A stretch of DNA of 64,000 nt from Candidatus Uhrbacteria bacterium. GTDB lineage: Bacteria > Patescibacteriota > Patescibacteriia > UBA9934 > UBA10169. Both the position numbers and the translations under genes were made by a program. The stretch is from contig JACPJO010000004.1 of NCBI GenBank assembly GCA_016187485.1, positions 56,306 to 120,305 on the forward strand, read 5' to 3'. This document shows positions 1 through 37,840 of the stretch, one piece after another; positions within the stretch are counted from its first letter, which is position 1, and every line of letters begins with the position of its first letter. The notes under the pieces are model-generated. The model was given only the letters and a program-made list of their open reading frames with translations. It made no database searches and had not been told where the DNA came from.

Positions 1-424
1 GCGTGGTGACGTCAAGGGTCGAGGCCGGACGTTCGGCCGTCGGCTGTTCCGGCACGACGGCCTTGCGCGAACGCAGAACGAGCCCCGCCAAAAGGAAGGC
101 GGCAAGGATAAGAACAGCGATAACAACAACGATCGCGACGATCTTCGTTACAGACCTCCCCCTTCCCCGTGGGACAACCGTCGGAGCCGGGCGAGAAGAC
201 GCGGGAGCGCGTGAAAATTGCTCGTCGGGATCAAGCCCAGCCGGCATGGCTCCTCCCTTCCCCTCAAAAAGCGGCGGATTTGTAGGACGCGGCGGGGCAA
301 CAGGTTCCGGCACAGGAGGTCTTGCTGCGGGGGCACTCACCGGTGCTGGTGGTGCTTCTGCTGCATCCATGCCAGAGAAAATATCCTCGGGCGGCGTGCT
401 GGTGGGTTTTTGGTCATCGAACAT
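1..424 (-). CDS. Hypothetical membrane protein, partial (ATG at about 424, runs off the window start). Pro-rich N-terminus, single TM helix KIVAIVVVIAVLILAAFLLAGLVL
   Basis: My own minus-strand translation gives MFDDQKPTSTPPEDIFSGMDAAEAPPAPVSAP...RSVTKIVAIVVVIAVLILAAFLLAGLVLRSRK... with no stop to position 1. It is absent from the ORF track because it is truncated at the edge. The track's plus-strand ORF 3..644 here has an Arg/Gly-rich composition typical of antisense artefacts. Confidence 0.5.
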   Translation of the reverse strand, partial: MFDDQKPTSTPPEDIFSGMDAAEAPPAPVSAPAARPPVPEPVAPPRPTNPPLFEGKGGAMPAGLDPDEQFSRAPASSRPAPTVVPRGRGRSVTKIVAIVVVIAVLILAAFLLAGLVLRSRKAVVPEQPTAERPASTLDVTT

Positions 425-459
425 ACAAATGTATTATAGCAATTTGCTTTTTGTTTTGC

Positions 460-1350
460 TCACAAGCGCCCCGGGCCATTTGGATTGTACCCGCCCTTTA
501 CCTCTTCCCCGTCGCCATATCCATCCCCATCCGTATCGGGATTTGTGGGGTTCGTGTTGCGCTGACGCTCTTCCCCATCAGAGAGTCCGTCCCCGTCCGT
601 GTCGACCACATCCGGCCGCGTACCAAGAATCTGCTCGTTCTTAAGAGAGAGGCCGTCCCCATCAGCATCGCGCGCCAGGACGTCTTTACGGCACGTCTCG
701 GTTTGACCGGCAGACGAGAGACGATCGCAAAGCGCGACGTCTCCCATCTCGAGCGCCTGAGCAAGAAACGCGGCATCCATACATACCGCCTCGGCAACGC
801 CGTAAGAACGACAAGATCCCTGCTCAACCACGTAACGGAGGAGTTCGCTCTCGCAAGATGCGCGCAGGTTCTCCTCCTCCACTCGCCCGCACCGCGCATA
901 ATCCTTTGCTTCTTTCGCCTGTGTCAAAAAGACATAACTCTCACACACCATGCGCTCGCTCCCCTCAAGGCTTCGGCACACGTCCGGATCTTGTTTCTGG
1001 ATAGCAATATCACGCACACAGGGAAATTGTTCGCCCGCGGGAAGAACAAGGCAGGCTTCCAGCGTTCCACTGGCTACAATTGTGCCCGAAACAAGATTTT
1101 GACGGCAAGCCTCGGGATCGCTCGCGTTCTCACACAAGGCGAGTTCCCCGTTGACGCGCTCGGTGGTGGCCTGCTGTTGCCCTGCACGCTCAAGAGCGGT
1201 AAGCCGTTGATTCGCGCGCCAGCGTACACCAAAGACAGCACCGAGAATCACAAGAAGCACCACAAAAATCCCTACGCCAATCATGACCCAGTTATGCGCG
1301 TCCTCATACCACGGCGGCGTGTAGTTATTGTACGGCAGGGGTTCTTCCAT
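460..1350 (-). CDS. Membrane protein with C-terminal thrombospondin-type-3-like Ca-binding repeats (DTDGDGLSDGEE, DTDGDGYGDGEE). N-terminal TM helix, Cys-rich central region
   Basis: 296-aa ORF. TM helix WVMIGVGIFVVLLVILGAVFGV. DxDxDG acidic repeats at the C-terminus. Its start lies 1 nt downstream of the giant gene's stop, so the two are probably translationally coupled. Confidence 0.6.
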   Translation of the reverse strand: MEEPLPYNNYTPPWYEDAHNWVMIGVGIFVVLLVILGAVFGVRWRANQRLTALERAGQQQATTERVNGELALCENASDPEACRQNLVSGTIVASGTLEACLVLPAGEQFPCVRDIAIQKQDPDVCRSLEGSERMVCESYVFLTQAKEAKDYARCGRVEEENLRASCESELLRYVVEQGSCRSYGVAEAVCMDAAFLAQALEMGDVALCDRLSSAGQTETCRKDVLARDADGDGLSLKNEQILGTRPDVVDTDGDGLSDGEERQRNTNPTNPDTDGDGYGDGEEVKGGYNPNGPGRL

Positions 1351-1351
1351 A

Positions 1352-4300
1352 TTATTGCGGACAGTACTCCAAACGGAGGTCGGAAAGATTCACTGTACCC
1401 GACCCGTTGAAGTTGATGTGGAAAGGAATCTGGAAAGCGCCACTTGCGGGACATTCAAATCCGGGCGGGAACGGGAGAAGGACATCATCGCCTTCGCTTG
1501 CGACACCCCCCGCAAAGCCTGTCGTAGTTTCGTAGTTCAAACTGAGACCCAGAATATTTGCGGTGATGGTGTCTACCACTGCCTGGAAACCATCGGCGTC
1601 TGGAGCGTTATAGGCATATTCCACGCCATCGGCGGGAGGCGCACACTCCGGCGTGCCGTCGCTATTGTTAAGTTCATAGAAGTCCACGCCGCATACATCA
1701 CTCGAAAAATGATTATTGACGGCAATTTCGTCGTCGTTTGAAGTAAAGGCGACCGTATAGATAACCGTATTTTCCAGGGTGTCAAGCGTGTCAGACGCGG
1801 CAGCGGCAGCGAGAAGATCGTCCGATTCCCCATCGGAAACAAGAATCACAATACGCACGTCCGTATCTGGCCGATCGGTAGTGAGAAGTTCGTATGCGCG
1901 GCTAAGCCCGTACGCCGTATGCGTACCCAACCCCGTGCCCGGATTTGCTAGTTGGGAAAGGTTAAGTACAAGTTCACTCTTGCTTGCCGTGAACGAGGCA
2001 TTGGGTAGAGGATTCTCTGCAAGCACATCGGTAGCTGGATTTACTTCATTGAAGATGACAATGCCGCTTGCAAGATTGCCGTTGGGGAACGCGTCATAGA
2101 GTTCGTCTGCCGCATCTACGAGCGCTTCTTTCACAATATCAAGACGGGTTGATTCGTCTGCTTCTGGCGGTGTCCCATCAATCTCGTAGGACATGGAAGT
2201 CGAATAATCAATAAGAAAGATGAGATCTATGTTGGGTGGTTCGACATCATCAAAGCTCACCGAGGCGTACAGCGCCGAACCCACAGTACAGGCCGGGAAG
2301 TAGAGAGTGGCATTATCGGGAGCGCCGGCGGTGGCAGGGTCTTCTGACAAGTAGCTCCTCAAATCCACCGAGGTCGTTCGATTGACGGCCGTCTCGCTTT
2401 GCGCCAGCACAGCTCCTTGTTCGAGTGTGAACGGACATGCAAGCGAGCAGGAAGCATTGCAATCTTGAAGCACGCAGCTTCCAAACGTGTCAGGATTAAA
2501 GATTGGGTCTCCGCATGCCTTGTTATAGTCAAAAGTTTCCGGAGGGGGTTGGGCGCAAGGAAATCCGTTGTACACATATTCCCCATCAACGGCCGTCGCA
2601 GACCCGCCATTACAGGTACCCACAAGCGCCTCGCACGTGTAGTCGAAGGGGCAATCCGCATCCGTCCCACAGACTTCGCCGCGCACTCGTTCGGTGGGGT
2701 TGATTGCTCCCTTGAAGCAGTAAGACGGCACGCTTGCTCCATCGCATACCTCTCCGCCGTTGATAACGCCGTCGCCGCAGTAACCACCCGTGACCGTCTG
2801 GTACGTACATGTGGCAGAGCAATAGTTACAGGTGTCACTGTAGGCGGGATTGCAGGGCACCCCGTTTTGTCCGCCGAGGTCGCATGACTCAACGCCAACG
2901 TTGCGCACGCCGTCGCCGCAGACATTTTGCGTGCAGTTATTCCGACACGCATCCTGTTCGTCCGTATCTCCATCATCGCATTCCTCGATCCCCTCCGGAA
3001 TGCCGTTGCCGCATGATCCCACAGGTGCACAGGCCTGCCAGCCGCCCGGGATCCCCGTCGTTGTAGGCCACCGGCACGCATTGGTATAGGGCGGCAGTCC
3101 AAGTCCGTTACACACACGTGTGCGCGTTTGCGGAAGACCAAGCGTATCAGACGCCGTACTTGCAGGGCAGACTCCCGCCCAGGAAAGTGCGGGGTCGCCG
3201 CAGAGAGAGCCGTCGGCACACTCTGCATTTGTCGTACACGGATCCCCATTGACACAGAGTTTCCCGTTCCACTGCTCGTTTGTGCCATCACACTCTTCCG
3301 CGGCACCGTTTACGGTACCGTCCCCGCACGAAGGAGCAGTCCCGGAACAATCCGCTGCGCATCCATATGCAGGATCTGTCGAGTACAGACCGTTGAGATA
3401 ACTTGCCGACGCCGTGCGGCATTGCGGAGTGGGCGCCAGCAAGTTAAAGGACGCGGCGCTGCCGCAATCACAGGCTTCAGCTCCCCCGATAAGTCCATCC
3501 CCGCAAAAGACCGCACTCGTCCACGTGCAGTTGGTCGCACAGAACCCATATTGACCGTTGAGCGGCCCATCATCACACGTCTCCGAACCTTGAATCACGC
3601 CATCCCCGCAGTAGTTAGGAATACAGGCGGCAGAGGTAGAAGCAGTCTGGAAGGCTTGGCATCCCAGGCCCGACGCGTCCGACGGCCCCACGCACGGCAC
3701 GGCGCGCGTTCCCGATGTGGCCACACAGGAGCCGTTGCTTCCGCAATCACTGGCGGTAGTACAAGGCAGGCCATTAAACGAGAGGTTCACGGCGTTTGCA
3801 CACACATTCGTGGAGCAAGAAACAGATGTTGTCTCTCCTACTTCGCAGATTTCTCCCGATCCAATCAACCCGTCTCCGCAGACATTCGTTGCGGTGAAGG
3901 TCGCTCCATTACAGGTGCGCGCATTTTGGAATCCGCCAAGTACAGGCGTGCTCGCAAACGGAGAGGGAAGATTTGCGTTGCCGACATAATATGTCCCGAG
4001 ATTAGGGAGGGGGGAATCCACATCCACGGGCGAGGCCCACGCGAGCGTCGTCTCGGCAGGAGGAGCCACGCCAAATTCCAAATCGGTCGAAAGCCAGAAC
4101 TCTTCCCCGCCGATACTTCGATAGGTGTACACGTGCGAATCTGCCGGACATATCGCCTGCGCTGCCAGAGCGTTGTAACACGTCTCTGCGTCGTAGCCAT
4201 CCGGACAGCTCACAAATGTGTTGAGCGGATCTGTCGGGACCGCGCGGCCAAGCGCGTTGGCCAATTGCGCCTGCCAGCTTGGCCAGGCAGAAAGGGAGAA

Positions 4301-7300
4301 TGAGGGGATATACGTCCCCGATCCAAGCGTCGGCACCGACGCCACGCATTCCTCGGCGCCTGAACAATCGCTGTCTTCAAAACAGAGTTGATCTTTAGTG
4401 ACACTGCAGTGCCGGTGCGTCTCGCCGTATGATGTAAGGGCCTCGCCAATAGTGCGTACGTCCGTAAGACGCTTGAGATCGCGACGGAGCTTGTCCTTGT
4501 CGGCATCGCAAAGCGCCGGCGAACCTCCCGTTGCCACCGCCGCGCACTCTGCATCCGTTGAGCACGCAACAAGCTCCCCATTCACTTCGATCGGGTCCAT
4601 GTCCCCGCTTGGGAGAGGCGTTGCGCAAACCCGGCCGTTTGTGACGGTCAAAAGCCCTGTCGTCAAGTCACGTGCACCGGCAAATTCCCATGCCCCAAGC
4701 ATAGCTTGATAGATTTGCCTGGTTTCCGCTGACGCCCCTTCGTTGTACGCAATCGCATACATATTGGGATAGAGCGCCGCGCCGGTGTTAGGTGCGGAAA
4801 CGTAGACCGTTCGGCCGTCACGCACACCCTCGAACCCGTCCACCGATTCCGCAGCAGGAGAGCCGACAAATCCTTGACCGGCAAACCACTCGGCGGGAGA
4901 GAGATAGTTGCTGTTGGAGAGCACGCGCACACCGATCGCGTCGTGTATATCCGGATCGTCCACGGCAAAAAGGAACTCCTTAAAAATCCCCGGTGACGCA
5001 ATGTTCTGCGTTTTTTGGACAACCGAGAGAGCCGGTAAGTCGTCACTCGTGCCGCGCTCCCCTGCATCACGGCAATAAAATGCGGAGAAATTCGTGTAGG
5101 GCGCAGTAAGCGTAATGCCCGGCGCTGGGTCTCCCGCATACCAGGCAGAATCTACAAACGGGAAATGTCCCACAGCCGGCCACGGGTTTTCACAAAGGAA
5201 CACGCGCTCCTCTACCGTGCCGCCCACGATTCGCCCAACGGTAGTGGGTGAGAGAACCGTATCTTCCATGATACGCAGTTGCGCCATGACATTCTCAACC
5301 CCATTGATCGCGGGGTTTGCCGTGGAAGCAGTTGCTGTTGTGTTGGCGCTGGTTGAAGCACCGGGAGTCACAACGACAATATTGGGGTCGGCGACACTCG
5401 AATTCCACCCCCATGTGGTAGAGACGGAAGTTCCGCTCCATGCCCACGCATACACTCCCGGCACACTCACGATAGGTTGCGCCAACGGCCCTATAAGTGT
5501 CATCGCCTCCGCCGCAAGTGGATGAGCCGTGTTCGCCTGTGTAAACAGGCCGGGGCTCGCGGAGAGGTCTTCCACCTGCACAAAATCTACGTCGCAAATA
5601 GTATTCCCCGTAGCAAAAATACGGGACCACGATGCCTCAAAGTTGGCAAAGACCGAGGAGTTTCCCACGAGCCCAACGCCCCATCGACTCAATACCCCAT
5701 CAGGATTCGCATCCGTATAGTTCGCATCCGCTTCTACCAAAATGCGGTAGAGCGTCTGTGGTTCAAGGATTTGGTTGTAGAGCACCGACACGCGTGTGAT
5801 GAACTCATCAGGATTCGTCTCGACATCTTCGATGGAGAGATTGGAGGCGACAATGCAGCTCACACTTCCCGCCCACGCGCGTGGCGCCACCACGCGCAAA
5901 ATATTCTGCCACAGACGGGCATACCACGGACGGTCAGAAAAATCCTGCACGATGACGGGCGTCGTATTCGTGGGGCAATCAGAGGCCGTCGTGTAGCGTA
6001 CGTCGGCCGAGTCGTAAGCGCCATTGCCGTTCGTGTCCTCCCCAAAAGCCGTAAGCACAATATGCTTCGTCCCGTTATCTTCCAAAATGCTCTCTTCACC
6101 CATTTGTTGCGTAAAGGCCACACGCACAAGCGCGTTTCGACACACGCCGGCACTCGTGGTGGCAAGCGGAACCGTGGTGCTTTCCTGTACCGCCGGACGA
6201 TCAAAACAGCAGTCACTCACCCCACAGCCAAGCAGGGCCGGCTCGCCGCATGTCGCATCGGTTGTGCAGGAGCACGAAAGACCGATCTCGGCCGTGCCAA
6301 ACGCTGAAGTCTCTGTTGCATCGTCCGAACCCGTTGCGCGAAGCGTCGTACGGACTTCCCCGTCCACGACCGCTTGGGTGGCAACGGCCTCGATTTCAAG
6401 CGTCTGGAGGGGATCGTACGGCCCCACCCCATCATCCGCGCTTGAGGAAATTTCACATTCCTCTCCAAGTTCCGGCAGACCGCCGTTGCCACAGAAGGAT
6501 GGCACCGGATAGAAAACCGACGAGCCTTCGTTCTGGCATTGTGCGGAGCACCCGTCACCACTTGTCGTATTTCCATCATCGCACTCCTCGCCGGCTCCTG
6601 TCGTCACGTTGTACTCTCTCCCGTTGGAACCACAGACACCATTCAAAATTCCCGTGGGGGTTGTGCGCGACCAGACACCCGGACCGAGCGGTTCAGCTAA
6701 ACAATTCGCGCTACACCCGTCCCCACTCGTGATACCTCCGTCGTCACAATCTTCCCCTTCTTCGACGTCACCGTTTCCACAGTGCACGCCAATATCGGCG
6801 CTTGGAGTGGAACCTTCGCGCAAACACTGCGCCGAACACCCATCGCCGCTTATCGTATTGCTGTCTTCACACTCCTCCCCGCCGGAACGGCCGTCCGGTG
6901 TTACTGTGTCGAATTGTGAAATCGTTCCGTCATTACATGTAAGTCCCGCCGCCGTCGAACCTTCGTTAAGACATGTTGCGGAACATCCGTTGCCGTCCAG
7001 GTTGCCGTTGTCGTCACATTCTTCGCGCCCTTCCCGGATACCATTGCCACAACACAACAGATCGGTTGCGGGGTTTGCACATGCGGTCACCCCGACGGTT
7101 TGACACGTGGGAGAACACCCAATGGGGTCAAGCGCGACATCACAATCTTCGTAGAAAGGATTGACGATGCCATCTCCGCAGACCGCCGCATACGAAATCG
7201 TCCCCGTACGCAAACACTGTGCACTGCACGAGAGAGCACGATCGGTGTCAGTGTCAAGAGTGGCCGTGAGCGTGCCGTCGGGAAGGTATGTCGCTACCGA

Positions 7301-10300
7301 GATCTGCGTATTCGTGGCAGAGTTCGTCACTTGATTCACCAGCCAATCCCATGCGTAAGCAAGCGGATTCAATACTTGGCCGGCCACGGCACAGCTGTCC
7401 GGTCGCCCCGTCACTGACGCGGAGAAACTTGCGCGGTCCCCCACGGCTTCAAGAATCACCTCAAGGGGGGAGAGAGCAACGTTCCCAATCCCGCAGGGGG
7501 CCGCATTATCCCGCGTGCGGAAAACCCACGAATAATAATTCCCGTAGTTGAGCGGTATAACCGGTGTGCCGTCCGGATTCGTAACCCCCCAGAGGGGAAT
7601 TCCCGGCACGGTAGGACTTTGCGGCTCCGATGTAATCCCCCCCCAGATCATCACACGATAATACATCGAGGGAGAAAGATCCCCGGCAAGTGTAAGTGCA
7701 ACGCCGTCTTCGACGTCCAATGGATCGTTTACAAAAGAGAGCGCTGTGGGGACAGGAGAGGTCGGATTGAAGGTTGCACAGAACTCATCCTCACAGGCAA
7801 AAACGCGCACATTTGGTTCAAGCACGTTTACCGCATTAACGTGACTCCCCGTAAGCCCCGTCGTTCCTGTTGCTTGCATGGCCGTGTTAAAAACGGCACC
7901 CACTTCTGCGTTCACACAGGCTGTCGTGCACTGTGGGTACGCGAGAGATACGGCGGGGTCGGTGAAATTCACGATCAATTCTTCCGTGTCAGAGATGCTG
8001 TAGCCAATGGGCGTGGCCGTGACAAGTGCCGGCTGTCCCGCATTGGTTTCCTCTTCAGGCACCACAAAGATAGGCTGGAGATTTTCAAAGGCCTGCGCGG
8101 CATTCCCCAAAAACAGGAGCGCATCGTTGATGTCCCCTTCAAGAGGACCGTACTGCGGATCTGCCGTCACGGGATCTGCGGCCTCCTCTGCAGCATCAAG
8201 CGCCGAAGAGAGCGTATCACCGGCAAGCAGCACAGGATTGAGCAGCGAGAAGACCGTGACGGTCTCTGCTGCGAGAGCCGTGTTCGTGCTTGTGAGCGTC
8301 GCAGCTGTTGGCCCTACCAGAGCATGCGCTTCAGGGAGGATCGTTTGCAGCGCCAGGAGAGCATCGGCAAGATCTGCAAGGTTGGTCGGAACCTCATCAA
8401 GAAGAGTTGTTGCCGGCGTGGCCGATTCCGGATCCCCAAGTGTTACCGTGTAGGGCGGATCCACATCAAAGTGGATGTTCTTTCCCTGCCGGTCGAGTTC
8501 CCACGCAAAGGCGTAATCATCAGGGTTGATAAGCACACACGCCCCCGTTGCAGGCAGAGCAACATACGGAATCGTCTCGTCGCTCGTCGCCGTATAATCT
8601 GGCGGACTTACGAGCACCTCTTCTACTTCGCAGGGAGTGGTGCTGGAGCGCGTCTTGAATCGATATGCATACGCCTGTGCCAGAGGAACACCACGGTTGT
8701 TTTTAATACCTGTGGTCGCCGTCGCGCGATACCAGGTATCGGGAAGCAGAGCCGTCGCAGGCGAGAAGATCAGGGAGAGATTCGTCGAGAGCAGAAAGTC
8801 TCCGGCAAGATGTCCTGTGGCAACCGTCTCGCAAGGATCCACTCCCGTCCCCGTACACCGATCTACGTAGAATGAGCCGTTGGTAAACGTAGAGATGTCC
8901 ATGCCGCTCGCGGGAAGGCCGGGAGTGAAGGAAACAGAGACCACCGCATTTGTACAGACGGCATCCCCATCGCTCCACAGTGTTGAGGGCGTGGGGGAAA
9001 TAAATGAGGTATCACACTGCGTACGGATTGTCGGATAGTTCGGGATGGGGCCGGTCGAGAAATGATACACGTACTGGGCGTTCACACTTGGCTCCCCGCA
9101 GGCGGCGGGCGTTGCCGCGCAACTGCCGTTCGAGCAACAAATTTGCGATGCCGTACACAACGAGGGCGTCTCTTGGCAATTCCCTACCGCAAAGAGAAGC
9201 TCATTTGATGGTGCGCCAAGAACCGTCACAGAAACCGGACCTGAAATGGCGCCCGTCGGTACAGGAGCGCTGACGTTCTCCGAAGAAGTGAAGCCAACCG
9301 GGCTTGCGGCTACCCCATCGTGGAAGGTGACACTCACTTCCGACGCGCTTGCGCCAAGATTGCTTCCGTAAATATTCACCGCTGTCCCCACAGGCCCCGC
9401 CACAGGCGCAAGCGCGCAAACGCCGGGTGTTGCAGGCGCCGAGACAACCGTGAAATCCTCCGCGTTACTTTGCGGACTCGTAGGGTAATCCGCACGGCGC
9501 ACAAAAATAGATTTGGGATTGGATTCCTCCGACGTGGTCATACTGGCTGGCACTTGCGCCACAATCGCCGAGTCCGTCCACCATGCATTCTGGCACGCAG
9601 CGGGAAAGTCCGGTTCAAACACCACATCGCCAAGCAAAGGGTCCTGAAAGACAACCACCCCTTCGGTAGATCCAAATCGTTGGCCTAAAATAGTCACGTA
9701 TTGCCCCACGCCACCTTCGGTCGGATGCGCAACACATTGTCCGGTTCCACACTGCGTATCGGACACACAAAGCTGCCCCGCATGTACGATATCGTTTTCA
9801 CACAAGGACCGGCCGGATGTCACTTCGCTGATGAACGGCGCACTGGAGGCATCTTCCGGTGAGAGAACACTGAAGTCAATCGTGTTAGACCCCTCATCAT
9901 TCACGAACACTTGGAGATCGTAGTCGCCCGGAGTACTCGGCGGAACAAGCAAGCTGATAAGCGCATCAAGCCACGTATCCACAGCGGGAAAGAATGACGC
10001 GCGATATACCGACGGACCGCTCAAGTAAAACGCCCCGACCGTCGGATCCTCCCCAAAATTATTTCCCACCACCGAGATGCGCGTAGCGGGCAGGCCGTTG
10101 CCCGGCGTTACCGCACAGAGCCCAGGACGGCGCACGTCATTCACATCAAAGTCTTGGATAAGCGGGCCGAAATCGTCATCCGTTCGGTCGGTAATTCCTG
10201 GCGTCGTGGCCGTCTCTGCTTTTACCACGCCGATCGCCCCATCTGCTGCCTCGGCAGGTACCGCCACAACTACCTGCGTGTTGTTCCAGCTCGGCGCCGG

Positions 10301-11728
10301 ACACGCAATGGGATCCACTTTAATGTCATCCGCCTCGGTATCCGGAGAACCGTAGAAGTACACGATGTTCGCTTGTGCACCAAAACCTGTTCCGTGAATC
10401 GTGACGAAATTATCCGGCGCGCCATTGCCAAGCGAAACCGATTGAATCCGCGGACCCGTGACGCAAACGCCGTTTACACAAAGCCCCGACGTGCAATCGC
10501 TGTTTTGGACACACACCGACGCATCGCAAGAAAGACAGTCCTCCCCGCCGCAATCTATCGCCGCCTCATCTTCATTTTGAATGGTGTCGGTACAGTGCGG
10601 GGCAAGAGCCGTCACGGGCACGCTGGAGGATGTCGTTTGATTACCGGCACAATCTGCCGCCACCGCGCGAATGGCATGGGTACTCGCTGGGGTAAGGTTC
10701 CCGGGCGTCCACGAACCCGATGCAAGACAGCTCACGGGACCGTCCCCCGCACAGGATGCCGGACCCGCAGAATCCACGGCTGTATTATCTACCGTAAAGG
10801 TGGTCACGCCCACACCGGAATCATCTGTAAGACTTGCCTGCAGAGACAGGGGGTAGCCCTCGTAGACAGGCGCGCCAGACGACGGATCAGTAATAGTCAC
10901 GGTTGGCCCCGTTGTATCTATGGCATCTGTCGTGGTGAAACCAAAGGAGCACGGCGCGGCAAGCGAACAGGCAATCTCTACGCCGTCCGCGCTTCGTAGA
11001 CCCTCAGAAACACGTACTTCGTAAGAAGTCGCCGGCTCAAAGCAGCGCTCAGAAGAACTGGGACAAGAAGCATCCGGCAGAACAGTAAGCACACGGCCAG
11101 AAGCGGAGAGATCCGTGGAAATAGCGTCCCCTCCGACAGGCGTCACGGTTATGTAAGGGGCAAGGGCGCTCGCGGACGTGGGAAGGTTTCGATTGAAGAG
11201 AATCTGAATCTCCGCATTTCTCGGCACCGAGGGAACCGAGGCCAGACACCCCCACGACGTAACGACAAATTGTGTGCGGTAGTCGGCAGGACATGTGGCG
11301 CAGGTGCTCAAATTTGTATCCTCCGGCCCCCCAATGACGTTGTTCTGCGACGTGGCGCCCACGAGCGATGAAATGACGAATTGCGCAATAGCAAAGGACG
11401 CCAAAATGATGGCAAGCCCGATGACCGCATTAATAATCATGCCGCGCGCTTTGCGCACCTTTTCCTCTTCTCCCTTCGAGAGCATCCACAAAAACCCGGC
11501 GTACAAGATCATGCCAATCAAGACCACGCCAGAGAACGTAATCGCTGCGCGCACAAGCCGCGCAATGATAAGACGGATGTCCGATGTCCCTCCAAACCCC
11601 GCTTGTGTGGCAAAATCTCCGAGGCCCTCGGTAATCGGCGACGAGGCGGCAAAAACAATATCGGGAAGCCACACGAGTGCGCCGAGAGAGAGGAGGAAGA
11701 CCAGTTGGGAGATGATGCGGCGTTTCAT
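1352..11728 (-). CDS. Giant (3458 aa) secreted, membrane-anchored surface protein. N-terminal signal peptide plus two-helix pilin-like hairpin, IPT/TIG-like beta-sandwich repeats, two arrays of Cys-rich CGDG/CGNG-x-EECDDGN-x-DGCS repeats (Myxococcus cysteine-rich-repeat type), C-terminal von Willebrand factor A domain with a MIDAS motif
   Basis: Single uninterrupted ORF with balanced amino-acid composition. N-terminus MKRRIISQLVFLLSLGALVWLPDIVFAASS, then TM helices GVVLIGMILYAGFLWM and AVIGLAIILASFAIAQFVI. Motifs VTIHGTGFG, VTILGQRFG and VNIYGSNLG are IPT-like. Repeats such as CGNGIREGREECDDNGNLDGNGCSATC occur about 6 and about 10 times. The VWA motif is DLIFLIDYSTSMS...GLGTHTAYGL...VILVSDGES. 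Confidence 0.85.
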   Translation of the reverse strand: MKRRIISQLVFLLSLGALVWLPDIVFAASSPITEGLGDFATQAGFGGTSDIRLIIARLVRAAITFSGVVLIGMILYAGFLWMLSKGEEEKVRKARGMIINAVIGLAIILASFAIAQFVISSLVGATSQNNVIGGPEDTNLSTCATCPADYRTQFVVTSWGCLASVPSVPRNAEIQILFNRNLPTSASALAPYITVTPVGGDAISTDLSASGRVLTVLPDASCPSSSERCFEPATSYEVRVSEGLRSADGVEIACSLAAPCSFGFTTTDAIDTTGPTVTITDPSSGAPVYEGYPLSLQASLTDDSGVGVTTFTVDNTAVDSAGPASCAGDGPVSCLASGSWTPGNLTPASTHAIRAVAADCAGNQTTSSSVPVTALAPHCTDTIQNEDEAAIDCGGEDCLSCDASVCVQNSDCTSGLCVNGVCVTGPRIQSVSLGNGAPDNFVTIHGTGFGAQANIVYFYGSPDTEADDIKVDPIACPAPSWNNTQVVVAVPAEAADGAIGVVKAETATTPGITDRTDDDFGPLIQDFDVNDVRRPGLCAVTPGNGLPATRISVVGNNFGEDPTVGAFYLSGPSVYRASFFPAVDTWLDALISLLVPPSTPGDYDLQVFVNDEGSNTIDFSVLSPEDASSAPFISEVTSGRSLCENDIVHAGQLCVSDTQCGTGQCVAHPTEGGVGQYVTILGQRFGSTEGVVVFQDPLLGDVVFEPDFPAACQNAWWTDSAIVAQVPASMTTSEESNPKSIFVRRADYPTSPQSNAEDFTVVSAPATPGVCALAPVAGPVGTAVNIYGSNLGASASEVSVTFHDGVAASPVGFTSSENVSAPVPTGAISGPVSVTVLGAPSNELLFAVGNCQETPSLCTASQICCSNGSCAATPAACGEPSVNAQYVYHFSTGPIPNYPTIRTQCDTSFISPTPSTLWSDGDAVCTNAVVSVSFTPGLPASGMDISTFTNGSFYVDRCTGTGVDPCETVATGHLAGDFLLSTNLSLIFSPATALLPDTWYRATATTGIKNNRGVPLAQAYAYRFKTRSSTTPCEVEEVLVSPPDYTATSDETIPYVALPATGACVLINPDDYAFAWELDRQGKNIHFDVDPPYTVTLGDPESATPATTLLDEVPTNLADLADALLALQTILPEAHALVGPTAATLTSTNTALAAETVTVFSLLNPVLLAGDTLSSALDAAEEAADPVTADPQYGPLEGDINDALLFLGNAAQAFENLQPIFVVPEEETNAGQPALVTATPIGYSISDTEELIVNFTDPAVSLAYPQCTTACVNAEVGAVFNTAMQATGTTGLTGSHVNAVNVLEPNVRVFACEDEFCATFNPTSPVPTALSFVNDPLDVEDGVALTLAGDLSPSMYYRVMIWGGITSEPQSPTVPGIPLWGVTNPDGTPVIPLNYGNYYSWVFRTRDNAAPCGIGNVALSPLEVILEAVGDRASFSASVTGRPDSCAVAGQVLNPLAYAWDWLVNQVTNSATNTQISVATYLPDGTLTATLDTDTDRALSCSAQCLRTGTISYAAVCGDGIVNPFYEDCDVALDPIGCSPTCQTVGVTACANPATDLLCCGNGIREGREECDDNGNLDGNGCSATCLNEGSTAAGLTCNDGTISQFDTVTPDGRSGGEECEDSNTISGDGCSAQCLREGSTPSADIGVHCGNGDVEEGEDCDDGGITSGDGCSANCLAEPLGPGVWSRTTPTGILNGVCGSNGREYNVTTGAGEECDDGNTTSGDGCSAQCQNEGSSVFYPVPSFCGNGGLPELGEECEISSSADDGVGPYDPLQTLEIEAVATQAVVDGEVRTTLRATGSDDATETSAFGTAEIGLSCSCTTDATCGEPALLGCGVSDCCFDRPAVQESTTVPLATTSAGVCRNALVRVAFTQQMGEESILEDNGTKHIVLTAFGEDTNGNGAYDSADVRYTTASDCPTNTTPVIVQDFSDRPWYARLWQNILRVVAPRAWAGSVSCIVASNLSIEDVETNPDEFITRVSVLYNQILEPQTLYRILVEADANYTDANPDGVLSRWGVGLVGNSSVFANFEASWSRIFATGNTICDVDFVQVEDLSASPGLFTQANTAHPLAAEAMTLIGPLAQPIVSVPGVYAWAWSGTSVSTTWGWNSSVADPNIVVVTPGASTSANTTATASTANPAINGVENVMAQLRIMEDTVLSPTTVGRIVGGTVEERVFLCENPWPAVGHFPFVDSAWYAGDPAPGITLTAPYTNFSAFYCRDAGERGTSDDLPALSVVQKTQNIASPGIFKEFLFAVDDPDIHDAIGVRVLSNSNYLSPAEWFAGQGFVGSPAAESVDGFEGVRDGRTVYVSAPNTGAALYPNMYAIAYNEGASAETRQIYQAMLGAWEFAGARDLTTGLLTVTNGRVCATPLPSGDMDPIEVNGELVACSTDAECAAVATGGSPALCDADKDKLRRDLKRLTDVRTIGEALTSYGETHRHCSVTKDQLCFEDSDCSGAEECVASVPTLGSGTYIPSFSLSAWPSWQAQLANALGRAVPTDPLNTFVSCPDGYDAETCYNALAAQAICPADSHVYTYRSIGGEEFWLSTDLEFGVAPPAETTLAWASPVDVDSPLPNLGTYYVGNANLPSPFASTPVLGGFQNARTCNGATFTATNVCGDGLIGSGEICEVGETTSVSCSTNVCANAVNLSFNGLPCTTASDCGSNGSCVATSGTRAVPCVGPSDASGLGCQAFQTASTSAACIPNYCGDGVIQGSETCDDGPLNGQYGFCATNCTWTSAVFCGDGLIGGAEACDCGSAASFNLLAPTPQCRTASASYLNGLYSTDPAYGCAADCSGTAPSCGDGTVNGAAEECDGTNEQWNGKLCVNGDPCTTNAECADGSLCGDPALSWAGVCPASTASDTLGLPQTRTRVCNGLGLPPYTNACRWPTTTGIPGGWQACAPVGSCGNGIPEGIEECDDGDTDEQDACRNNCTQNVCGDGVRNVGVESCDLGGQNGVPCNPAYSDTCNYCSATCTYQTVTGGYCGDGVINGGEVCDGASVPSYCFKGAINPTERVRGEVCGTDADCPFDYTCEALVGTCNGGSATAVDGEYVYNGFPCAQPPPETFDYNKACGDPIFNPDTFGSCVLQDCNASCSLACPFTLEQGAVLAQSETAVNRTTSVDLRSYLSEDPATAGAPDNATLYFPACTVGSALYASVSFDDVEPPNIDLIFLIDYSTSMSYEIDGTPPEADESTRLDIVKEALVDAADELYDAFPNGNLASGIVIFNEVNPATDVLAENPLPNASFTASKSELVLNLSQLANPGTGLGTHTAYGLSRAYELLTTDRPDTDVRIVILVSDGESDDLLAAAAASDTLDTLENTVIYTVAFTSNDDEIAVNNHFSSDVCGVDFYELNNSDGTPECAPPADGVEYAYNAPDADGFQAVVDTITANILGLSLNYETTTGFAGGVASEGDDVLLPFPPGFECPASGAFQIPFHINFNGSGTVNLSDLRLEYCPQ

Positions 11729-11737
11729 GCAAGGTTT

Positions 11738-13648
11738 CTAGGGAGCGGGAGGAGAGAAAATGGGCGGTAGGGGACACGAGCCGGAGGCAAGCGCATTTCC
11801 GTCGCAACAACTTGGCTGTGAGGCATCCACGGCGCAATCCCCCGGCGGGCCATAGGCGGGGTAATAACAAATTTGATAGGCCGACTCCACTTCGTTATTG
11901 ATAAAAGGGTAGTACAGCTGTGTGATGGTATCCTCCAGGTAGTCCAGGAACGACCCGTGCTCCAAAACCGCAACGGTCCCCACGACTTCTGGCTCCGTCG
12001 CAGGCGGGACTGCGGGCACCGTCACTCCCTCCGCAAGAGGCCGATACCAAATTTCATGGAACGGGCGCGGAGCAATGCCCATATTCGTGTTCGTTAGTGA
12101 CCCTACACGCATCGGCACATCAAACGTCACGCGCACGGGGGCAGAAATATCCACGTCGGGCTGATTTAACGTGGGAAGCAAGGACGCGATGGCGGGGCGA
12201 TCGAGGTTTACATCATCCGTCGTTGAAAAAAATGACCAAAAGTTGTCTATGGCAAGATCGTCGTCCGGCTCTGGCGTCAGTGCCGCGTTGGCTGGCGGCC
12301 CATTGGCAATAAGATTTTGGTCGTCGCCGTTTTTCCCACCTCCATCCAGAGAATTCCCTGCCACGTCCACCACGCCATCGTAGCCCACAGCCGTAAAGAG
12401 CGCTTGAGGCGGTTCGGCGCCGAGCGTGGCGGCACGCACCAGAAGCGTAAAGTCATCATTCCCTGGAAGACAGAAGATTGCTCCTCCGCAAGCGTTCTCG
12501 CCGCATTGGTCAAAACTCGTAAATTCGGTCGTGCGGTACCCATTTGTGATGCGCCATGTGCCTTCTACCGGTACCGCGTCACTATCGTCGTCACGCACTT
12601 GGAGGTTTGAGAAAAATCTTGCCGGCGTGGCGGTGGGACGATGCACTCCCGCCGTGGCGGTAGGGTCTACCGCCTCATTGAAGTTCACTTGCACCACGAT
12701 ATTGCGGTCTACAGTCCGATCGGCAACAGGAATAACGCTTTGCACATAGGGCGGGGTAATATCCACCACCGTGGAGACCGTAAATGACCAGGCATAGCCC
12801 GTGGTATTGGGCGGAGGGAAGGCCGGAAACGTTGTCGTAAGGTCAGGGCCAAGTTTCAAAATATCGGCATCCAAAAGGACAGAGTAGTTTTGCTCTTCTT
12901 CTGCGCTTCCAATAAACTCCACCGGGTCAAAGACAAAGATTTTTTTGTCTGCTGTATACGTGACGTCTACGGCATCTTGCACAAGAGCGCCCGCAACCCC
13001 ATCAGCCGTACGGTAAATTTTCACATTGCCCGCATTCACTTTACCCCGCGGGACTTCGGCCACCGGATCAATCGTGCCCGGAGCAATGAGGGAGTCAACA
13101 AACATCGATTCTTTAAATGTCACGATAATTTTTGTGTTGCGCGGGATCTCTACCGCTCCGCGAGCGGGATAATGATCTTCGATAATCCCCTGCCCCAGCG
13201 CTCCCGAAAGCGGTTCAATAAAGCCGGCAATGTTGGTAGAGGTAGATGGCTGGCGAAGCCCGAGCGAGCGCAGAAGCGCACTTAAGATAAACGAAGCGAT
13301 TCCGTAAGACGCAAGCACGATAGCCAAACCGATGACGGCGGTGCGAATGATGCCGCGCGCGGTTTGGATTTTCTTGGGATCGCCACCTGCCAGCATGTAG
13401 CGAATACCGGCGTACACAATGAGACAGACAAAGACGATGCCCAAAAACCCAATGACCGCACGAACAATCTTTGCTGCAATCACGCGAACGTCTTGTGTGG
13501 GCAGACCCTGAGCGCCAATGTCAGAAAGATTTGCGCCAAGCCCTGCTTCTGCGCCGAATGCTATCGACGAGAGAAAAAACAAACCCGCCGTCACGCTAAG
13601 AGTGATGGCTAAAAAAAGAGCGCTGCGTTTTGCACCCACAAACCGCAT
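11738..13648 (-). CDS. 636-aa secreted, membrane-anchored protein. Its N-terminal signal peptide plus two-TM hairpin module is paralogous to that of the giant protein
   Basis: N-terminus MRFVGAKRSALFLAITLSVTAGLFFLSSIAFGA...VRVIAAKIVRAVIGFLGIVFVCLIVYAGIRYMLAGGDPKKIQTARGIIRTAVIGLAIVLASYGIASFI aligns residue-by-residue with the giant protein's N-terminus. Its stop lies 10 nt upstream of the giant gene's start. Confidence 0.75.
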   Translation of the reverse strand: MRFVGAKRSALFLAITLSVTAGLFFLSSIAFGAEAGLGANLSDIGAQGLPTQDVRVIAAKIVRAVIGFLGIVFVCLIVYAGIRYMLAGGDPKKIQTARGIIRTAVIGLAIVLASYGIASFILSALLRSLGLRQPSTSTNIAGFIEPLSGALGQGIIEDHYPARGAVEIPRNTKIIVTFKESMFVDSLIAPGTIDPVAEVPRGKVNAGNVKIYRTADGVAGALVQDAVDVTYTADKKIFVFDPVEFIGSAEEEQNYSVLLDADILKLGPDLTTTFPAFPPPNTTGYAWSFTVSTVVDITPPYVQSVIPVADRTVDRNIVVQVNFNEAVDPTATAGVHRPTATPARFFSNLQVRDDDSDAVPVEGTWRITNGYRTTEFTSFDQCGENACGGAIFCLPGNDDFTLLVRAATLGAEPPQALFTAVGYDGVVDVAGNSLDGGGKNGDDQNLIANGPPANAALTPEPDDDLAIDNFWSFFSTTDDVNLDRPAIASLLPTLNQPDVDISAPVRVTFDVPMRVGSLTNTNMGIAPRPFHEIWYRPLAEGVTVPAVPPATEPEVVGTVAVLEHGSFLDYLEDTITQLYYPFINNEVESAYQICYYPAYGPPGDCAVDASQPSCCDGNALASGSCPLPPIFSPPAP

Positions 13649-13689
13649 GCGTCTATTATACTCTACTTTCTCTTTATCTTGTGTGGATA

Positions 13690-15883: not shown

Positions 15884-16495
15884 TTAAAGGGTATCGTACA
15901 CGGGCGTTTGAAATCCTCCAAGACGCGAAAACGGGAAGCCGCGGAACCAGACGCGGCCGACCATTAAGTCTCGCCCGACGGGACCGAAACTGCGCGAGTC
16001 AAGACTGTAATCCCGGTTGTCGCCCAGAAGATAATACTCCTGGGCTCCGAGTTCTACGCGCTTCTTCCCCACGGTCTCGGCGCCATCAAGATACGGCTCC
16101 TTAAGCGGAAGTCCCTCGGGGTATGCGTCGTTATAAATCTTTACGCGTCCCTCATCTACCTCGACTGTTTCGCCAGGAAGCCCGATAACGCGCTTGATAA
16201 AATACTGGCTTGGGTCCCGGGGATATTGGAAAACAATAATCTCGCCACGCTCGGGCTCACGAAACCGGTAGGAGATTTCGTCTATCACCAGATACTCATT
16301 GTCGTAAAAATTCGGTTCCATGCTGGCGCCGCGCACAATGAACGGCTGGATCAGAAAAGCGCGGATGGGGATGATGATCGCTGCGGAGATCGCCAAAATC
16401 TGCACGAGTTCTACAATAAAAACAATCACGGAGCCAAAGACCCCGAATCGTTCCGACCAATGCGCCCTCTCCGGCACCGAAGGCATGTCTTCCAT
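15884..16495 (-). CDS. lepB: Signal peptidase I (S26 family)
   Basis: GASMEPNFYDNEYLVIDEISYRF...IKRVIGLPGETV...LGDNRDYSLDSRSFGPV. The track ORF begins at a TTG inside a palindrome at about 16534. The first ATG (MEDMPSVPE) is at about 16495. Confidence 0.85.
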   Translation of the reverse strand: MEDMPSVPERAHWSERFGVFGSVIVFIVELVQILAISAAIIIPIRAFLIQPFIVRGASMEPNFYDNEYLVIDEISYRFREPERGEIIVFQYPRDPSQYFIKRVIGLPGETVEVDEGRVKIYNDAYPEGLPLKEPYLDGAETVGKKRVELGAQEYYLLGDNRDYSLDSRSFGPVGRDLMVGRVWFRGFPFSRLGGFQTPVYDTL

Positions 16496-16534
16496 AGGTG
16501 CGAGCACTTTATCAAGGAAATTTCCAAAAATCAA

Positions 16535-33388: not shown

Positions 33389-33474
33389 TGGTGCCGGGAG
33401 AGGGACTCGAACCCTCAAGGGCTTGCGCCCACGGGATTTTGAGTCCCGCGCGTATACCAATTCCGCCATCCCGG
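33388..33474 (-). tRNA. tRNA-Leu (anticodon CAA), type II long variable arm, CCA encoded
   Basis: Reverse complement GCCGGGATGGCGGAATTGGTATACGCGCGGGACTCAAAATCCCGTGGGCGCAAGCCCTTGAGGGTTCGAGTCCCTCTCCCGGCACCA. Anticodon loop CTCAAAA. Confidence 0.88.
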
Positions 33475-33550
33475 CATTGCAAGCAGGATACTAACAATTC
33501 TTGGATTACTTGACAATCAAGCAGTTGGACTATAGCATTCAGCCACACGA

Positions 33551-33627
<77 letters not shown>

Positions 33628-33636
33628 ATTGTTCGG

Positions 33637-33713
33637 GGCTGGGTAGCTCAGTTGGTTAGAGCGAGGGACTCATAAGCCCTAGGTCGCCGGTTCGATTCCG
33701 GCCCCAGCTACCA
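33637..33713 (+). tRNA. tRNA with CAU anticodon: elongator Met or Ile2 (lysidine)
   Basis: GGCTGGGTAGCTCAGTTGGTTAGAGCGAGGGACTCATAAGCCCTAGGTCGCCGGTTCGATTCCGGCCCCAGCTACCA. Elongator-type acceptor stem. Its identity cannot be fixed from sequence alone. Confidence 0.8.
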
Positions 33714-37839: not shown

Positions 37840-37840
37840 A

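What the first reader, a model, noticed from the sequence alone, without database searches (positions are those of the whole stretch)
1..13648. Four-gene minus-strand cluster encoding a giant surface protein, a paralog-anchored partner and two membrane proteins: candidate cell-surface or attachment apparatus
The genes are 11738..13648 (636 aa), 1352..11728 (3458 aa), 460..1350 (296 aa) and <1..424 (partial). They sit head-to-tail with 1-10-nt spacers, so they are very likely one transcript with translational coupling. All four products have signal peptides and/or TM anchors. The giant protein combines adhesion-type modules (IPT/TIG-like, Cys-rich disulfide repeats, VWA/MIDAS), and the last complete gene carries Ca-binding acidic repeats. 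This is the largest accessory block in the window and has no enzymatic or housekeeping content.
Basis: partly seen in the sequence, partly recalled or inferred. Interest (0 to 1): 0.8.

Follow-up and report, generated by a model that had tools for sequence, protein, structure and literature searches.

The report
Conserved giant surface-fibre locus of Uhrbacteria
This is a real gene cluster, conserved in an ultra-small (CPR/Patescibacteria) bacterium and its relatives, that encodes a 3,458-residue surface protein and a smaller partner, both held in the membrane by a conjugation-pilin-like hairpin, followed by calcium-binding membrane proteins; it is most likely a cell-surface contact or attachment structure and no paper I could find describes it.

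Summary
Uninterrupted minus-strand ORFs lie at 11738..13648 (636 aa), 1352..11728 (3,458 aa), 460..1350 (296 aa) and <1..424. TIG, Big_5/Big_7, cysteine-rich acidic repeats, VWA with an intact MIDAS, and TSP3 calcium repeats all pass profile searches.

- The genome is Candidatus Uhrbacteria (Patescibacteria).
- The anchor shared by genes 1 and 2 is a VirB2-like Pfam T4SS_pilin hairpin.
- The block is not accessory. The giant gene directly follows gene 1 in 70 of 71 species-level genomes, usually between SPase-HisRS-YqeY and YbeY-DgkA-FtsA-FtsZ.
- Giant orthologues are colinear over about 3,000 aa.
- The cluster has a fifth gene beyond the window edge: a third membrane protein with TSP3 repeats.
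- Structure prediction adds a PsbP/LpqN-like domain and a probable type IV pilin-like domain inside the giant.
- No VirB4 or other T4SS gene was seen nearby.

Best reading (confidence 0.5): a membrane-anchored surface fibre with a distal metal-dependent binding head, a four-Ig partner and calcium-binding base proteins. Rivals are display on a VirB2-type pilus and an S-layer-like envelope structure. I class it as a new variant of a known kind, interest 0.55.

The parts
11738..13648 (-). g1, 636 aa: signal peptide, VirB2-like hairpin, four Ig-like (Big_5-type) domains and a Cys-rich C-terminal tail
   Evidence: ORF. Pfam T4SS_pilin 30.2 bits (cut-off 26.6) and Big_5 E 3.5e-11. AF2 model pLDDT 88, with helices 54-85 and 91-128 followed by beta domains. 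Foldseek matches Ig-domain arrays in LdtMt2, S-layer SbsC/Sap, titin and CopC. 2,183 cluster representatives at E<=1e-30.
13286..13483 (-). g1 T4SS_pilin (VirB2-like) two-helix membrane hairpin, aa 56-121
   Evidence: G81, G89 and G107 are invariant and Y79, M85, I106 and L108 nearly invariant in 63 homologues.
1352..11728 (-). g2, giant 3,458-aa protein (NCBI MBI2484843.1, 'VWA domain-containing protein')
   Evidence: Colinear orthologues in L007-L009 and in 37 complete species orthologues.
11375..11578 (-). g2 T4SS_pilin (VirB2-like) hairpin, aa 51-118, preceded by a signal peptide (aa 1-27)
   Evidence: Pfam 27.8 bits against a cut-off of 26.6. KD segments 9-27, 62-80 and 101-119. 32% identical to the g1 N-terminus. 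Conserved signature across orthologues.
8651..11230 (-). g2 N-proximal Ig-like region: Big_5, Big_7, a Cys knot, TIG domains and Big_5 (aa ~167-1026)
7979..8491 (-). g2 lineage-variable Ala/Leu-rich insert, aa ~1080-1250
   Evidence: Alignment occupancy 0.13-0.6 and identity below 0.17 in the 38-sequence alignment.
6449..7201 (-). g2 first array of cysteine-rich acidic repeats (TIGR02232/DUF4215), aa ~1510-1760
   Evidence: E 1.2e-34, six stretches. CG[DNS]G motifs at 1517, 1560, 1650 and 1746.
4679..5200 (-). g2 PsbP/Mog1/LpqN-like alpha-beta domain, aa ~2177-2350
4082..4504 (-). g2 probable type IV pilin-like globular domain without the hydrophobic N-terminal helix, aa ~2409-2549
2699..3901 (-). 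g2 second array of cysteine-rich acidic repeats, aa ~2610-3010
   Evidence: DUF4215, four stretches. CG[DNS]G motifs at 2617-2984. This is among the best-conserved parts of the giant.
1727..2227 (-). g2 C-terminal VWA domain with an intact MIDAS (D3174-x-S3176-x-S3178, T3269/T3271, D3299)
   Evidence: Pfam VWA 30.6 bits against 23.8. MIDAS residues are conserved in 30-36 of 38 orthologues.
1355..1546 (-). g2 conserved C-terminal module with the Cys pair C3426/C3456
   Evidence: Both cysteines are conserved in 35-36 of 38 orthologues.
460..1350 (-). g3, 296 aa: N-terminal TM helix (aa 22-40), a Cys-containing helical region, and two or more TSP3 calcium-binding repeats (aa ~228-290)
   Evidence: g3-like genes follow the giant in related genomes.
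1..424 (-). g4 (partial in the window; 248 aa in full, or 189 aa by the public gene call): Pro-rich cytoplasmic tail, TM helix (aa 95-113), acidic linker and TSP3 repeats
   Evidence: The rest of g4 and the fifth gene g5 (334 aa, TM plus TSP3, L001 11680..12684) lie beyond window position 1.

Best explanation
This is a conserved five-gene envelope locus of Uhrbacteria-type Patescibacteria that builds a membrane-anchored surface fibre.

Proposed mechanism:
- g1 and g2 are exported by Sec and their signal peptides are cut.
- Each protein stays in the cytoplasmic membrane through a paralogous VirB2/TrbC-like two-helix hairpin. The short basic loop faces the cytoplasm and everything C-terminal to the hairpin is outside the cell.
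- The ~3,330-residue ectodomain of g2 is a fixed, colinear chain. It runs through Ig-like modules, two arrays of disulfide-rich acidic repeats, a PsbP/LpqN-like domain and a probable pilin-like domain. It ends in a VWA domain with an intact MIDAS metal site and a small disulfide-clamped terminal module.
- This places a metal-dependent ligand-binding head far from the cell, where it can contact a partner or host cell or another surface.
- g1 (four Ig-like domains) sits beside g2 through the related hairpin.
- g3, g4 and g5 are single-pass proteins whose TSP3 repeats bind calcium just outside the membrane. They form or stabilise the base. g4 and g5 also carry Pro-rich cytoplasmic tails.

Shown: gene structure, domain content, predicted topology, conservation and synteny.
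Inferred: fibre geometry, g1-g2 pairing, calcium binding, and the contact or adhesion role.
For: Domains and motifs:
- Pfam/NCBIfam hits for T4SS_pilin, Big_5, Big_7, TIG, VWA, Cys-rich acidic repeats and TSP3.
- MIDAS residues are conserved in 30-36 of 38 orthologues.

Topology:
- Signal-peptide-like segment plus two TM segments in g1 and g2, and one TM in each of g3-g5.
- The AF2 model of g1 shows a helical hairpin followed by four beta-sandwich domains, pLDDT 88.
- 152 cysteines in g2 fit an extracellular, disulfide-bonded chain.

Conservation:
- g2 orthologues are colinear over aa ~1-3000+ at 30-36% identity.
- The giant follows g1 in 70/71 species loci, mostly with -4 to +22 nt spacing.
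- TSP3 membrane genes follow the giant in 21/26 eligible loci. The five misses are split giants.
- The hairpin sequence is strongly conserved in both families.

Context:
- No enzyme domain was found in any product.
- No VirB4, VirB6 or VirD4 match among the ~40 larger ORFs I scanned in the window, and none in the precomputed Pfam labels of the 10 kb beyond its left end. Not every ORF was scanned.
- Giant membrane proteins have been proposed as host-attachment factors in another CPR bacterium (PMC8080830).
Against: - There is no functional, expression or localisation data.
- The hairpin is far better conserved than a passive anchor needs to be. That hints at oligomerisation or interaction with a machine.
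- Lineage-wide conservation of a fixed architecture is unusual for host-specific adhesins, which normally vary. That fits a structural role equally well.
- g1's fold matches include S-layer proteins.
- A T4SS is reported elsewhere in genomes of the ABY1 class, to which I assign Uhrbacteria from my own knowledge of GTDB; that assignment was not tested here. Use of the pilin domain by that machine cannot be excluded.
- The central-domain model is only moderate (pLDDT 66, from 15 sequences).
Confidence: 0.5

Rival explanations
1. Pilus display. The VirB2-like domain is a true polymerisation module. g1 and g2 are extracted from the membrane and built into, or cap or prime, a conjugative-type pilus made by the T4SS encoded elsewhere in the genome. 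The giant ectodomain would then be carried on a pilus as a tip or side adhesin.
For: - Both proteins pass the Pfam T4SS_pilin cut-off.
- The hairpin, including invariant glycines, is conserved much more strongly than a simple anchor would need.
- VirB2-like pilins and pilin arrays are widespread in Patescibacteria and essential in Southlakia, and many lie away from virB4 (PMC12102498 and PMC10633639).
- From my own knowledge of F-pilus structures, both pilin termini lie on the outside of the pilus, so a C-terminal extension is topologically possible.
Against: - No T4SS gene match among the ~40 larger ORFs scanned in the window or in the labels of the 10 kb to its left. In the ABY1 class, T4SS loci sit near comF/recG/radA.
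- A 3,330-aa extension on every subunit is sterically incompatible with a homopolymer, so g2 could only be a rare subunit.
- The locus is embedded in housekeeping synteny rather than in a T4SS or pilin array.
Confidence: 0.2
2. Structural envelope layer. g1, possibly with g2, is an S-layer-like or cell-envelope scaffold protein of these monoderm cells. It would be tethered by the hairpin and stabilised by the calcium-binding TSP3 proteins, and needed for envelope integrity or division rather than for contacting another cell.
For: - Near-universal presence and fixed position next to yqeY and ybeY-dgkA-ftsA-ftsZ.
- g1's Ig-array model matches the S-layer proteins SbsC, Sap and the Nitrosopumilus S-layer.
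- Calcium dependence is common in S-layers (my own knowledge).
- The g1 family is large, with 2,183 clusters at E<=1e-30.
Against: - The best fold matches are generic Ig arrays: LdtMt2 BIg domains rank first, and TM-scores are low.
- A terminal VWA with a conserved MIDAS and a 3,458-aa single chain point to ligand binding at a distance rather than lattice formation.
- No SLH or other known S-layer anchoring domain appears in Pfam.
- The codon-usage proxy shows no sign of exceptional expression, although this genome has little codon bias.
Confidence: 0.17
3. One reading: a strain-specific accessory adhesin island acquired horizontally.
For: Large size, adhesion-type domains, no enzymes.
Against: - The same five-gene order in the same housekeeping context across dozens of species.
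- GC, GC3 and codon usage match the rest of the window.
- No mobile-element genes flank it.
Confidence: 0.03

Closest known systems
VirB2/TrbC-like pilins of the Patescibacteria T4SS (Pfam PF18895 T4SS_pilin; Southlakia pilin array; PMC10633639, PMC12102498)
   Same: The same N-terminal module: a signal peptide followed by a two-helix hairpin with a short basic loop. It scores above the Pfam cut-off in both g1 and g2. Two such genes sit in tandem, as in the reported 'VirB2 arrays'.
   Different: Known pilins are small stand-alone proteins, often next to virB4. Here the module heads proteins of 636 and 3,458 aa with large ectodomains, and it lies in housekeeping synteny with no T4SS gene seen among the ORFs I scanned. 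The T4SS survey reports detecting no adhesins such as PrgB in its dataset. It does not mention pilin-headed giant proteins in the passages I read.
Giant membrane-located surface proteins of CPR bacteria (Vampirococcus lugosii; PMC8080830)
   Same: Very long, membrane-anchored proteins rich in interaction and adhesion domains, in a reduced genome. They are proposed to mediate host recognition and attachment.
   Different: A different lineage with different domain sets (WD40, PKD, integrin and others). Those proteins are not reported as one conserved orthologous locus. No homology to them was tested here.
VWA/MIDAS tip adhesins of pili and gliding machines (RrgA/GBS104 of sortase pili, PilY1 of type IV pili, Myxococcus CglD) - from my own knowledge
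   Same: A metal-dependent VWA head placed at the far end of a long surface structure. CglD also combines VWA with TSP3 calcium repeats, and the Cys-rich acidic repeat (TIGR02232) is a myxobacterial module.
   Different: There is no LPXTG motif (the g2 C-terminus reads ...LRLEYCPQ) and no sortase was seen among the scanned neighbours. NCBIfam scores to CglD and MtsD are far below the cut-offs (32.8 against 400; 39.7 against 800) and cover only the TSP3 repeats. Here the stalk is one polypeptide anchored by a hairpin, not a polymer.
Giant T1SS/RTX adhesins (SiiE, LapA, MpIBP)
   Same: Multi-thousand-residue chains of Ig-like domains that depend on calcium and carry a ligand-binding region at the distal end (PMC6272769, listed; otherwise my own knowledge).
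   Different: Those are near-identical tandem repeats, secreted C-terminus first by a T1SS in diderm bacteria. g2 has a Sec signal peptide, no detectable internal repeats by BLAST or TRF, a heterogeneous fixed domain order, and no ABC/MFP genes seen nearby.
Gram-positive S-layer proteins (SbsC, Sap)
   Same: Arrays of Ig-like domains. The g1 model matches them at Foldseek E about 1e-5.
   Different: There is no SLH or other cell-wall-binding domain. Anchoring is by a membrane hairpin. The matches are generic Ig-array similarity with low TM-scores.

Membership tests
Pfam PF18895 T4SS_pilin (VirB2-like pilin) | Profile match above the curated gathering score | tested here: met
   g1 scores 30.2 bits and g2 27.8 bits against a cut-off of 26.6. 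The related NCBIfam model NF045849 is below its cut-off (24.8 and 23.3 against 40).
Pfam PF18895 T4SS_pilin (VirB2-like pilin) | Signal peptide followed by two hydrophobic helices joined by a short basic loop | tested here: met
   KD segments. AF2 helices 54-85 and 91-128 in g1. Loops GGDPKKIQTARG and KGEEEKVRKARG.
VirB2 pilins as T4SS components | Small stand-alone subunit (about 70-120 aa when mature) | tested here: not met
   636 and 3,458 aa.
VirB2 pilins as T4SS components | Genetic linkage to virB4 and other T4SS genes | tested here: not met
   No VirB4, VirB6 or VirD4 match among the ~40 larger ORFs scanned in the window, nor in the precomputed labels of the 10 kb to its left. The rest of the genome could not be examined.
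VirB2 pilins as T4SS components | Polymerises into a pilus | not testable with these tools
   Needs multimer modelling or experiment.
VWA domain with MIDAS | Profile match above the cut-off, plus the DxSxS...T...D metal site | tested here: met
   VWA scores 30.6 bits against 23.8. D3174, S3176, S3178, T3269/T3271 and D3299 are present and conserved in 30-36 of 38 orthologues.
Type IV pilin / T2SS pseudopilin (internal g2 domain, aa ~2409-2549) | Class III signal peptide and a hydrophobic N-terminal alpha-1N helix | tested here: not met
   The domain is internal. No hydrophobic segment lies near aa 2400.
Type IV pilin / T2SS pseudopilin (internal g2 domain, aa ~2409-2549) | Alpha-1C helix packed on an antiparallel sheet (the pilin head fold) | tested here: inconclusive
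Sortase-anchored Gram-positive pilus adhesins | C-terminal LPXTG sorting signal | tested here: not met
   The C-termini of g1 and g2 lack an LPXTG motif and a hydrophobic tail.
T1SS/RTX giant adhesins | Tandem near-identical BIg repeats, a C-terminal RTX secretion signal and an adjacent T1SS | tested here: not met
   No repeats by TRF or self-BLAST. No RTX hit. An N-terminal Sec-type signal is present. The scanned neighbours are housekeeping genes.
Myxococcus CglD / MtsD | NCBIfam equivalog score above the cut-off | tested here: not met
   32.8 against 400 and 39.7 against 800. The matches are limited to the TSP3 repeats.
S-layer proteins | Known cell-wall anchoring module (SLH or similar) and lattice formation | tested here: not met
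   No SLH in Pfam. There is only generic Ig-array fold similarity. Lattice formation cannot be tested here.

The most novel reading that the evidence does not exclude
The VirB2-like head of g1 and g2 is not just an anchor. It is an assembly module that builds a lineage-wide host-contact organelle: a short pilus-like or ring-like membrane assembly carrying a ~3,300-residue fibre. The fibre's internal type IV pilin-like domain and terminal MIDAS head would couple it to type IV pili and to a partner cell. That would make it a previously unrecognised kind of surface machine, essential to the Uhrbacteria lifestyle.
Probability: 0.12. Interest if true: 0.8.

Novelty: new variant of a known kind. Interest (0 to 1): 0.55.

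Why it matters
How most Patescibacteria outside the cultured Saccharibacteria contact other cells is unknown. This locus takes about 1% of a roughly 1-Mb genome (the size of the complete relatives seen). It is kept in the same place and the same domain order across dozens of species, yet public annotation calls it only 'hypothetical' or 'VWA domain-containing'.

It offers a concrete, lineage-wide candidate for the surface structure that mediates contact. It has a defined antigen (the VWA head or the g1 Ig domains) that could be used to label or capture cells and so help find their hosts.

It also shows that hits to the 'T4SS pilin' domain in Patescibacteria include heads of very large surface proteins unlinked to virB4. 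That matters for surveys that count such hits as pilins.

Tried and rejected
- The homologue search with the whole giant timed out.
- A 760-aa central segment found only 5 partial hits and not even itself. A 31-sequence profile found only 9. The word-indexed database evidently handles these long, divergent proteins poorly, so I extracted orthologues from genome loci instead.
The central segment was therefore modelled from a shallow 15-row alignment.
- PDB sequence searches with profiles of the central region gave only chance-level hits.
- Pfam on the central segments, alone or over 31 orthologues, gave nothing useful.
- The codon-adaptation proxy for expression level was uninformative, with all genes between 0.64 and 0.78.
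- The promoter and terminator scan found fewer sites than shuffled sequence, so it gives no evidence for or against one transcript.
- An attempt to extend the contig to the right through ComEC failed, because no exact product is on record.
- Assembly artefact, horizontal acquisition, T1SS/RTX adhesin, sortase pilus and CglD/MtsD membership were all considered and rejected (see the membership tests).

Full report
**1.

The ORF list gives uninterrupted minus-strand ORFs at 11738..13648 (636 aa), 1352..11728 (3,458 aa) and 460..1350 (296 aa). A further ORF with an ATG at 424 runs off the left edge.

The junctions are 9 nt (g1/g2) and 1 nt (g2/g3). The g3/g4 junction is 35 nt if g4 starts at 424. 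The public gene caller starts g4 177 nt further in, which would make the gap 212 nt.

The giant ORF is real:
- The identical 3,458-aa product is called on contigs from several independent run assemblies and on an NCBI MAG.
- There are no DNA tandem repeats that could have been mis-assembled.
- 37 other species carry uninterrupted orthologues of at least 2,900 aa.

**2. Organism and context**

The exact proteins belong to a Candidatus Uhrbacteria bacterium MAG (locus tags HYW18_01685-01695). This organism falls in the Patescibacteria/Parcubacteria group.

The rest of the window is core chromosome:
- Upstream of g1: YqeY, HisRS, signal peptidase I and a Ser/Thr kinase.
- Further along: der, dprA, topA, relA, parAB, scpAB, AsnRS/AspRS, the ribosomal-protein/SecY operon, EF-Tu/EF-G, murA and comEC.

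A contig from the same organism extends 10 kb past window position 1 (L001). It shows that g4 is complete at 248 aa (or 189 aa). It is followed by a fifth gene, g5 (334 aa), and then by ybeY, dgkA, ftsA, ftsZ and nrdR. The cluster's GC, GC3 and codon usage match those of its neighbours.

**3. What the proteins are**

*g1 and g2.* Both begin with a signal-peptide-like segment. A Pfam T4SS_pilin (PF18895, VirB2-like) domain follows, scoring above the curated cut-off in both proteins (30.2 and 27.8 bits against 26.6). This is the 'paralogous anchor': the first 180 residues are 32% identical (E 2e-23). It consists of two hydrophobic helices joined by a short basic loop.

*g1 structure.* With 62 homologues, AlphaFold gives a confident model (pLDDT 88). 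It shows a helical hairpin followed by four beta-sandwich domains. Foldseek matches these domains to Ig-domain arrays: the BIg domains of L,D-transpeptidase LdtMt2, the S-layer proteins SbsC and Sap, titin and CopC. No enzyme fold appears.

*g2 domain order after the hairpin*:
- Big_5 and Big_7 domains.
- A small Cys knot.
- TIG domains and another Big_5.
- An Ala/Leu-rich insert that varies between lineages (aa ~1080-1250).
- An array of cysteine-rich acidic repeats (TIGR02232/DUF4215).
- A roughly 750-residue region with no Pfam match.
- A second Cys-rich repeat array.
- A VWA domain and a small terminal module.

The VWA MIDAS site (D3174-x-S-x-S, T3269/T3271, D3299) is intact. It is conserved in 30-36 of 38 orthologues, as is a terminal cysteine pair.

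A profile of the second block aligns to PulG with hhalign at probability 42%, E 2.6e-4. I supplied the PulG sequence from memory. Foldseek, Pfam and PDB sequence searches did not confirm the pilin call. I therefore treat it as probable but unproven. This block has no hydrophobic N-terminal helix, so it cannot be a conventional pilin.

*g3, g4 and g5.* Each has one TM helix and two canonical DxDxDGxxDxxE TSP3 repeats outside the membrane. g4 and g5 also have Pro-rich cytoplasmic tails of 80-95 residues.

**4. The locus is conserved, not accessory**

*g1 family.* g1 has full-length homologues of about 600 aa at 35-58% identity in many Patescibacteria. A profile search of 1.84 billion cluster representatives finds 2,183 at E<=1e-30, and the top 150 all score below 1e-149.

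*Three long contigs of other species.* The order is SPase - HisRS - (S21) - YqeY - g1 - giant, followed by a TSP3 gene where the contig allows.

- A g2 orthologue directly follows g1 in 70 of 71 loci with enough sequence.
- YqeY lies within 2.5 kb upstream in 54 of 67.
- The g1-giant spacing is mostly -4 to +22 nt.
- Record titles name Uhrbacteria, Falkowbacteria and 'Patescibacteria group'. Many MAGs carry what looks like a placeholder 'Gammaproteobacteria' title.

*Giant sizes.* Most are 3,000-3,550 aa. One subgroup is 1,700-1,800 aa, and a few are split into two ORFs.

*Colinearity.* g2 aligns colinearly with its orthologues along almost its whole length. The Cys-rich arrays, the hairpin and the PsbP-like and pilin-like blocks are the best conserved.

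*Downstream genes.* TSP3 membrane genes follow the giant in 21 of 26 eligible loci. The five misses are split giants.

*Rate of change across the same loci.* Identity to the window proteins is about 37% for g1 and 32% for g2, against 59-60% for HisRS and SPase and 41% for YqeY. The surface proteins therefore diverge faster than the enzymes while keeping their architecture.

**5. Mechanism**

The predicted topology puts everything after the hairpin outside the cell. The 152 cysteines, the Ig-like modules, the calcium-type repeats and the terminal MIDAS domain all fit an extracellular, disulfide-stabilised, extended chain. Its ligand-binding head would sit far from the membrane.

I consider the most likely reading (0.5) to be a membrane-anchored surface fibre used for contact with another cell or surface. 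g1 would be a hairpin-paired partner. g3-g5 would be calcium-binding base components.

The main unexplained point is the hairpin. Its conservation is stronger than a passive anchor needs, with invariant glycines and a shared signature in both families. This keeps two rivals alive:
- **Incorporation into a VirB2-type pilus built by a T4SS elsewhere (0.2).** T4SS and VirB2-like arrays are widespread and essential in cultured Patescibacteria, and many pilin genes lie away from virB4. However, I found no T4SS match among the ~40 larger ORFs scanned in the window or in the labels of the 10 kb to its left. ABY1-class T4SS loci sit near comF/recG/radA.
- **An S-layer-like structural role (0.17).** The universality of the locus, its position beside division genes and the S-layer fold matches suggest this. 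The single-chain giant with a MIDAS head argues against it.

The 'accessory adhesin island' reading is contradicted by the synteny data.

**6. Comparison with what is known**

The N-terminal module belongs to Pfam T4SS_pilin. As T4SS pilins, however, g1 and g2 fail two defining features: small size and linkage to virB4.

The VWA/MIDAS membership test is met. Membership of sortase pilus adhesins, RTX/T1SS adhesins, CglD/MtsD and S-layer families was tested and not met.

Functionally, the closest analogues are VWA-tipped pilus adhesins and the giant surface proteins proposed to mediate attachment in Vampirococcus.

Seven full-text searches found papers on Patescibacteria T4SS pilins and on giant genes, but none describing this locus or pilin-headed giant proteins. 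That library is incomplete, so this is absence of evidence only.

**7. Verdict**

This is a real, well-defined and widely conserved locus. The framing as an accessory block was wrong, and the key feature, the VirB2-like head, was missed.

It is a new variant of known kinds: CPR giant surface proteins and VirB2-like pilin-domain proteins. Function remains inferred.

Interest is 0.55. It is a good, testable candidate for the contact structure of an uncultured lineage, but it is built from familiar adhesion modules and has no functional evidence yet.

Noticed in passing
window 22203..23825 (-): A 540-aa ORF between der and dprA has no Pfam match and markedly higher GC (0.65) and GC3 (0.80) than every other gene measured in the window (about 0.55 and 0.60). 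By eye its translation has a hydrophobic stretch near aa 377-394; I did not test this.
   Followed up: no
window 13655..13660 (-), just upstream of the g1 ATG at 13648: A perfect TATAAT sits 6 nt before the g1 start codon, in the 41-nt gap after yqeY. This would imply a leaderless or near-leaderless transcript. NCBI starts g1 three codons later (633 aa). The consensus scan did not call a promoter here because there is no -35 match.
   Followed up: partly
window 15884..16534 (-), and L007-L089: A signal peptidase I (S26) gene sits three genes upstream of the two signal-peptide-bearing VirB2-like proteins in nearly all related genomes. From my own knowledge, VirB2-type pilins are processed by signal peptidase I. 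The linkage may be a coincidence of housekeeping synteny.
   Followed up: partly
L007 11864..21854; L018, L030, L062: In a few genomes the giant gene is split into two consecutive ORFs (for example 1,796 + 1,585 aa in Uhrbacteria GW2011_GWA2_41_10). This could be a frameshift, a sequencing error or a real split.
   Followed up: no
L039, L065, L071, L080 (also L026, L047, L040): A subgroup of genomes has much shorter giant orthologues (1,670-1,800 aa, or 2,600-2,950 aa). They are still followed by matches to g3 (mostly only its TSP3 C-terminus), g4 and g5; ybeY is also seen in five of the seven.
   Followed up: no
L010-L089 record titles: Many MAG records carrying this Patescibacteria-type locus are titled 'uncultured Gammaproteobacteria bacterium'. 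Single records are titled Kapaibacterium and Methylomirabilis. These look like placeholder titles or mis-binned contigs.
   Followed up: no
window 1..424 (-) / L001 10927..11673: The g4 start is ambiguous. The ATG at window 424 gives 248 aa with a 94-residue Pro-rich cytoplasmic tail, while the public gene call starts at window 247 (189 aa). g5 has a similar Pro-rich tail.
   Followed up: partly
window 33389..33713; 36442..39187; 27590..29020: tRNA-Leu lies next to two tandem tRNA-Met genes. There is an adjacent pair of class II AsnRS/AspRS-type synthetase paralogues. A 476-aa ORF has no Pfam match.
   Followed up: no
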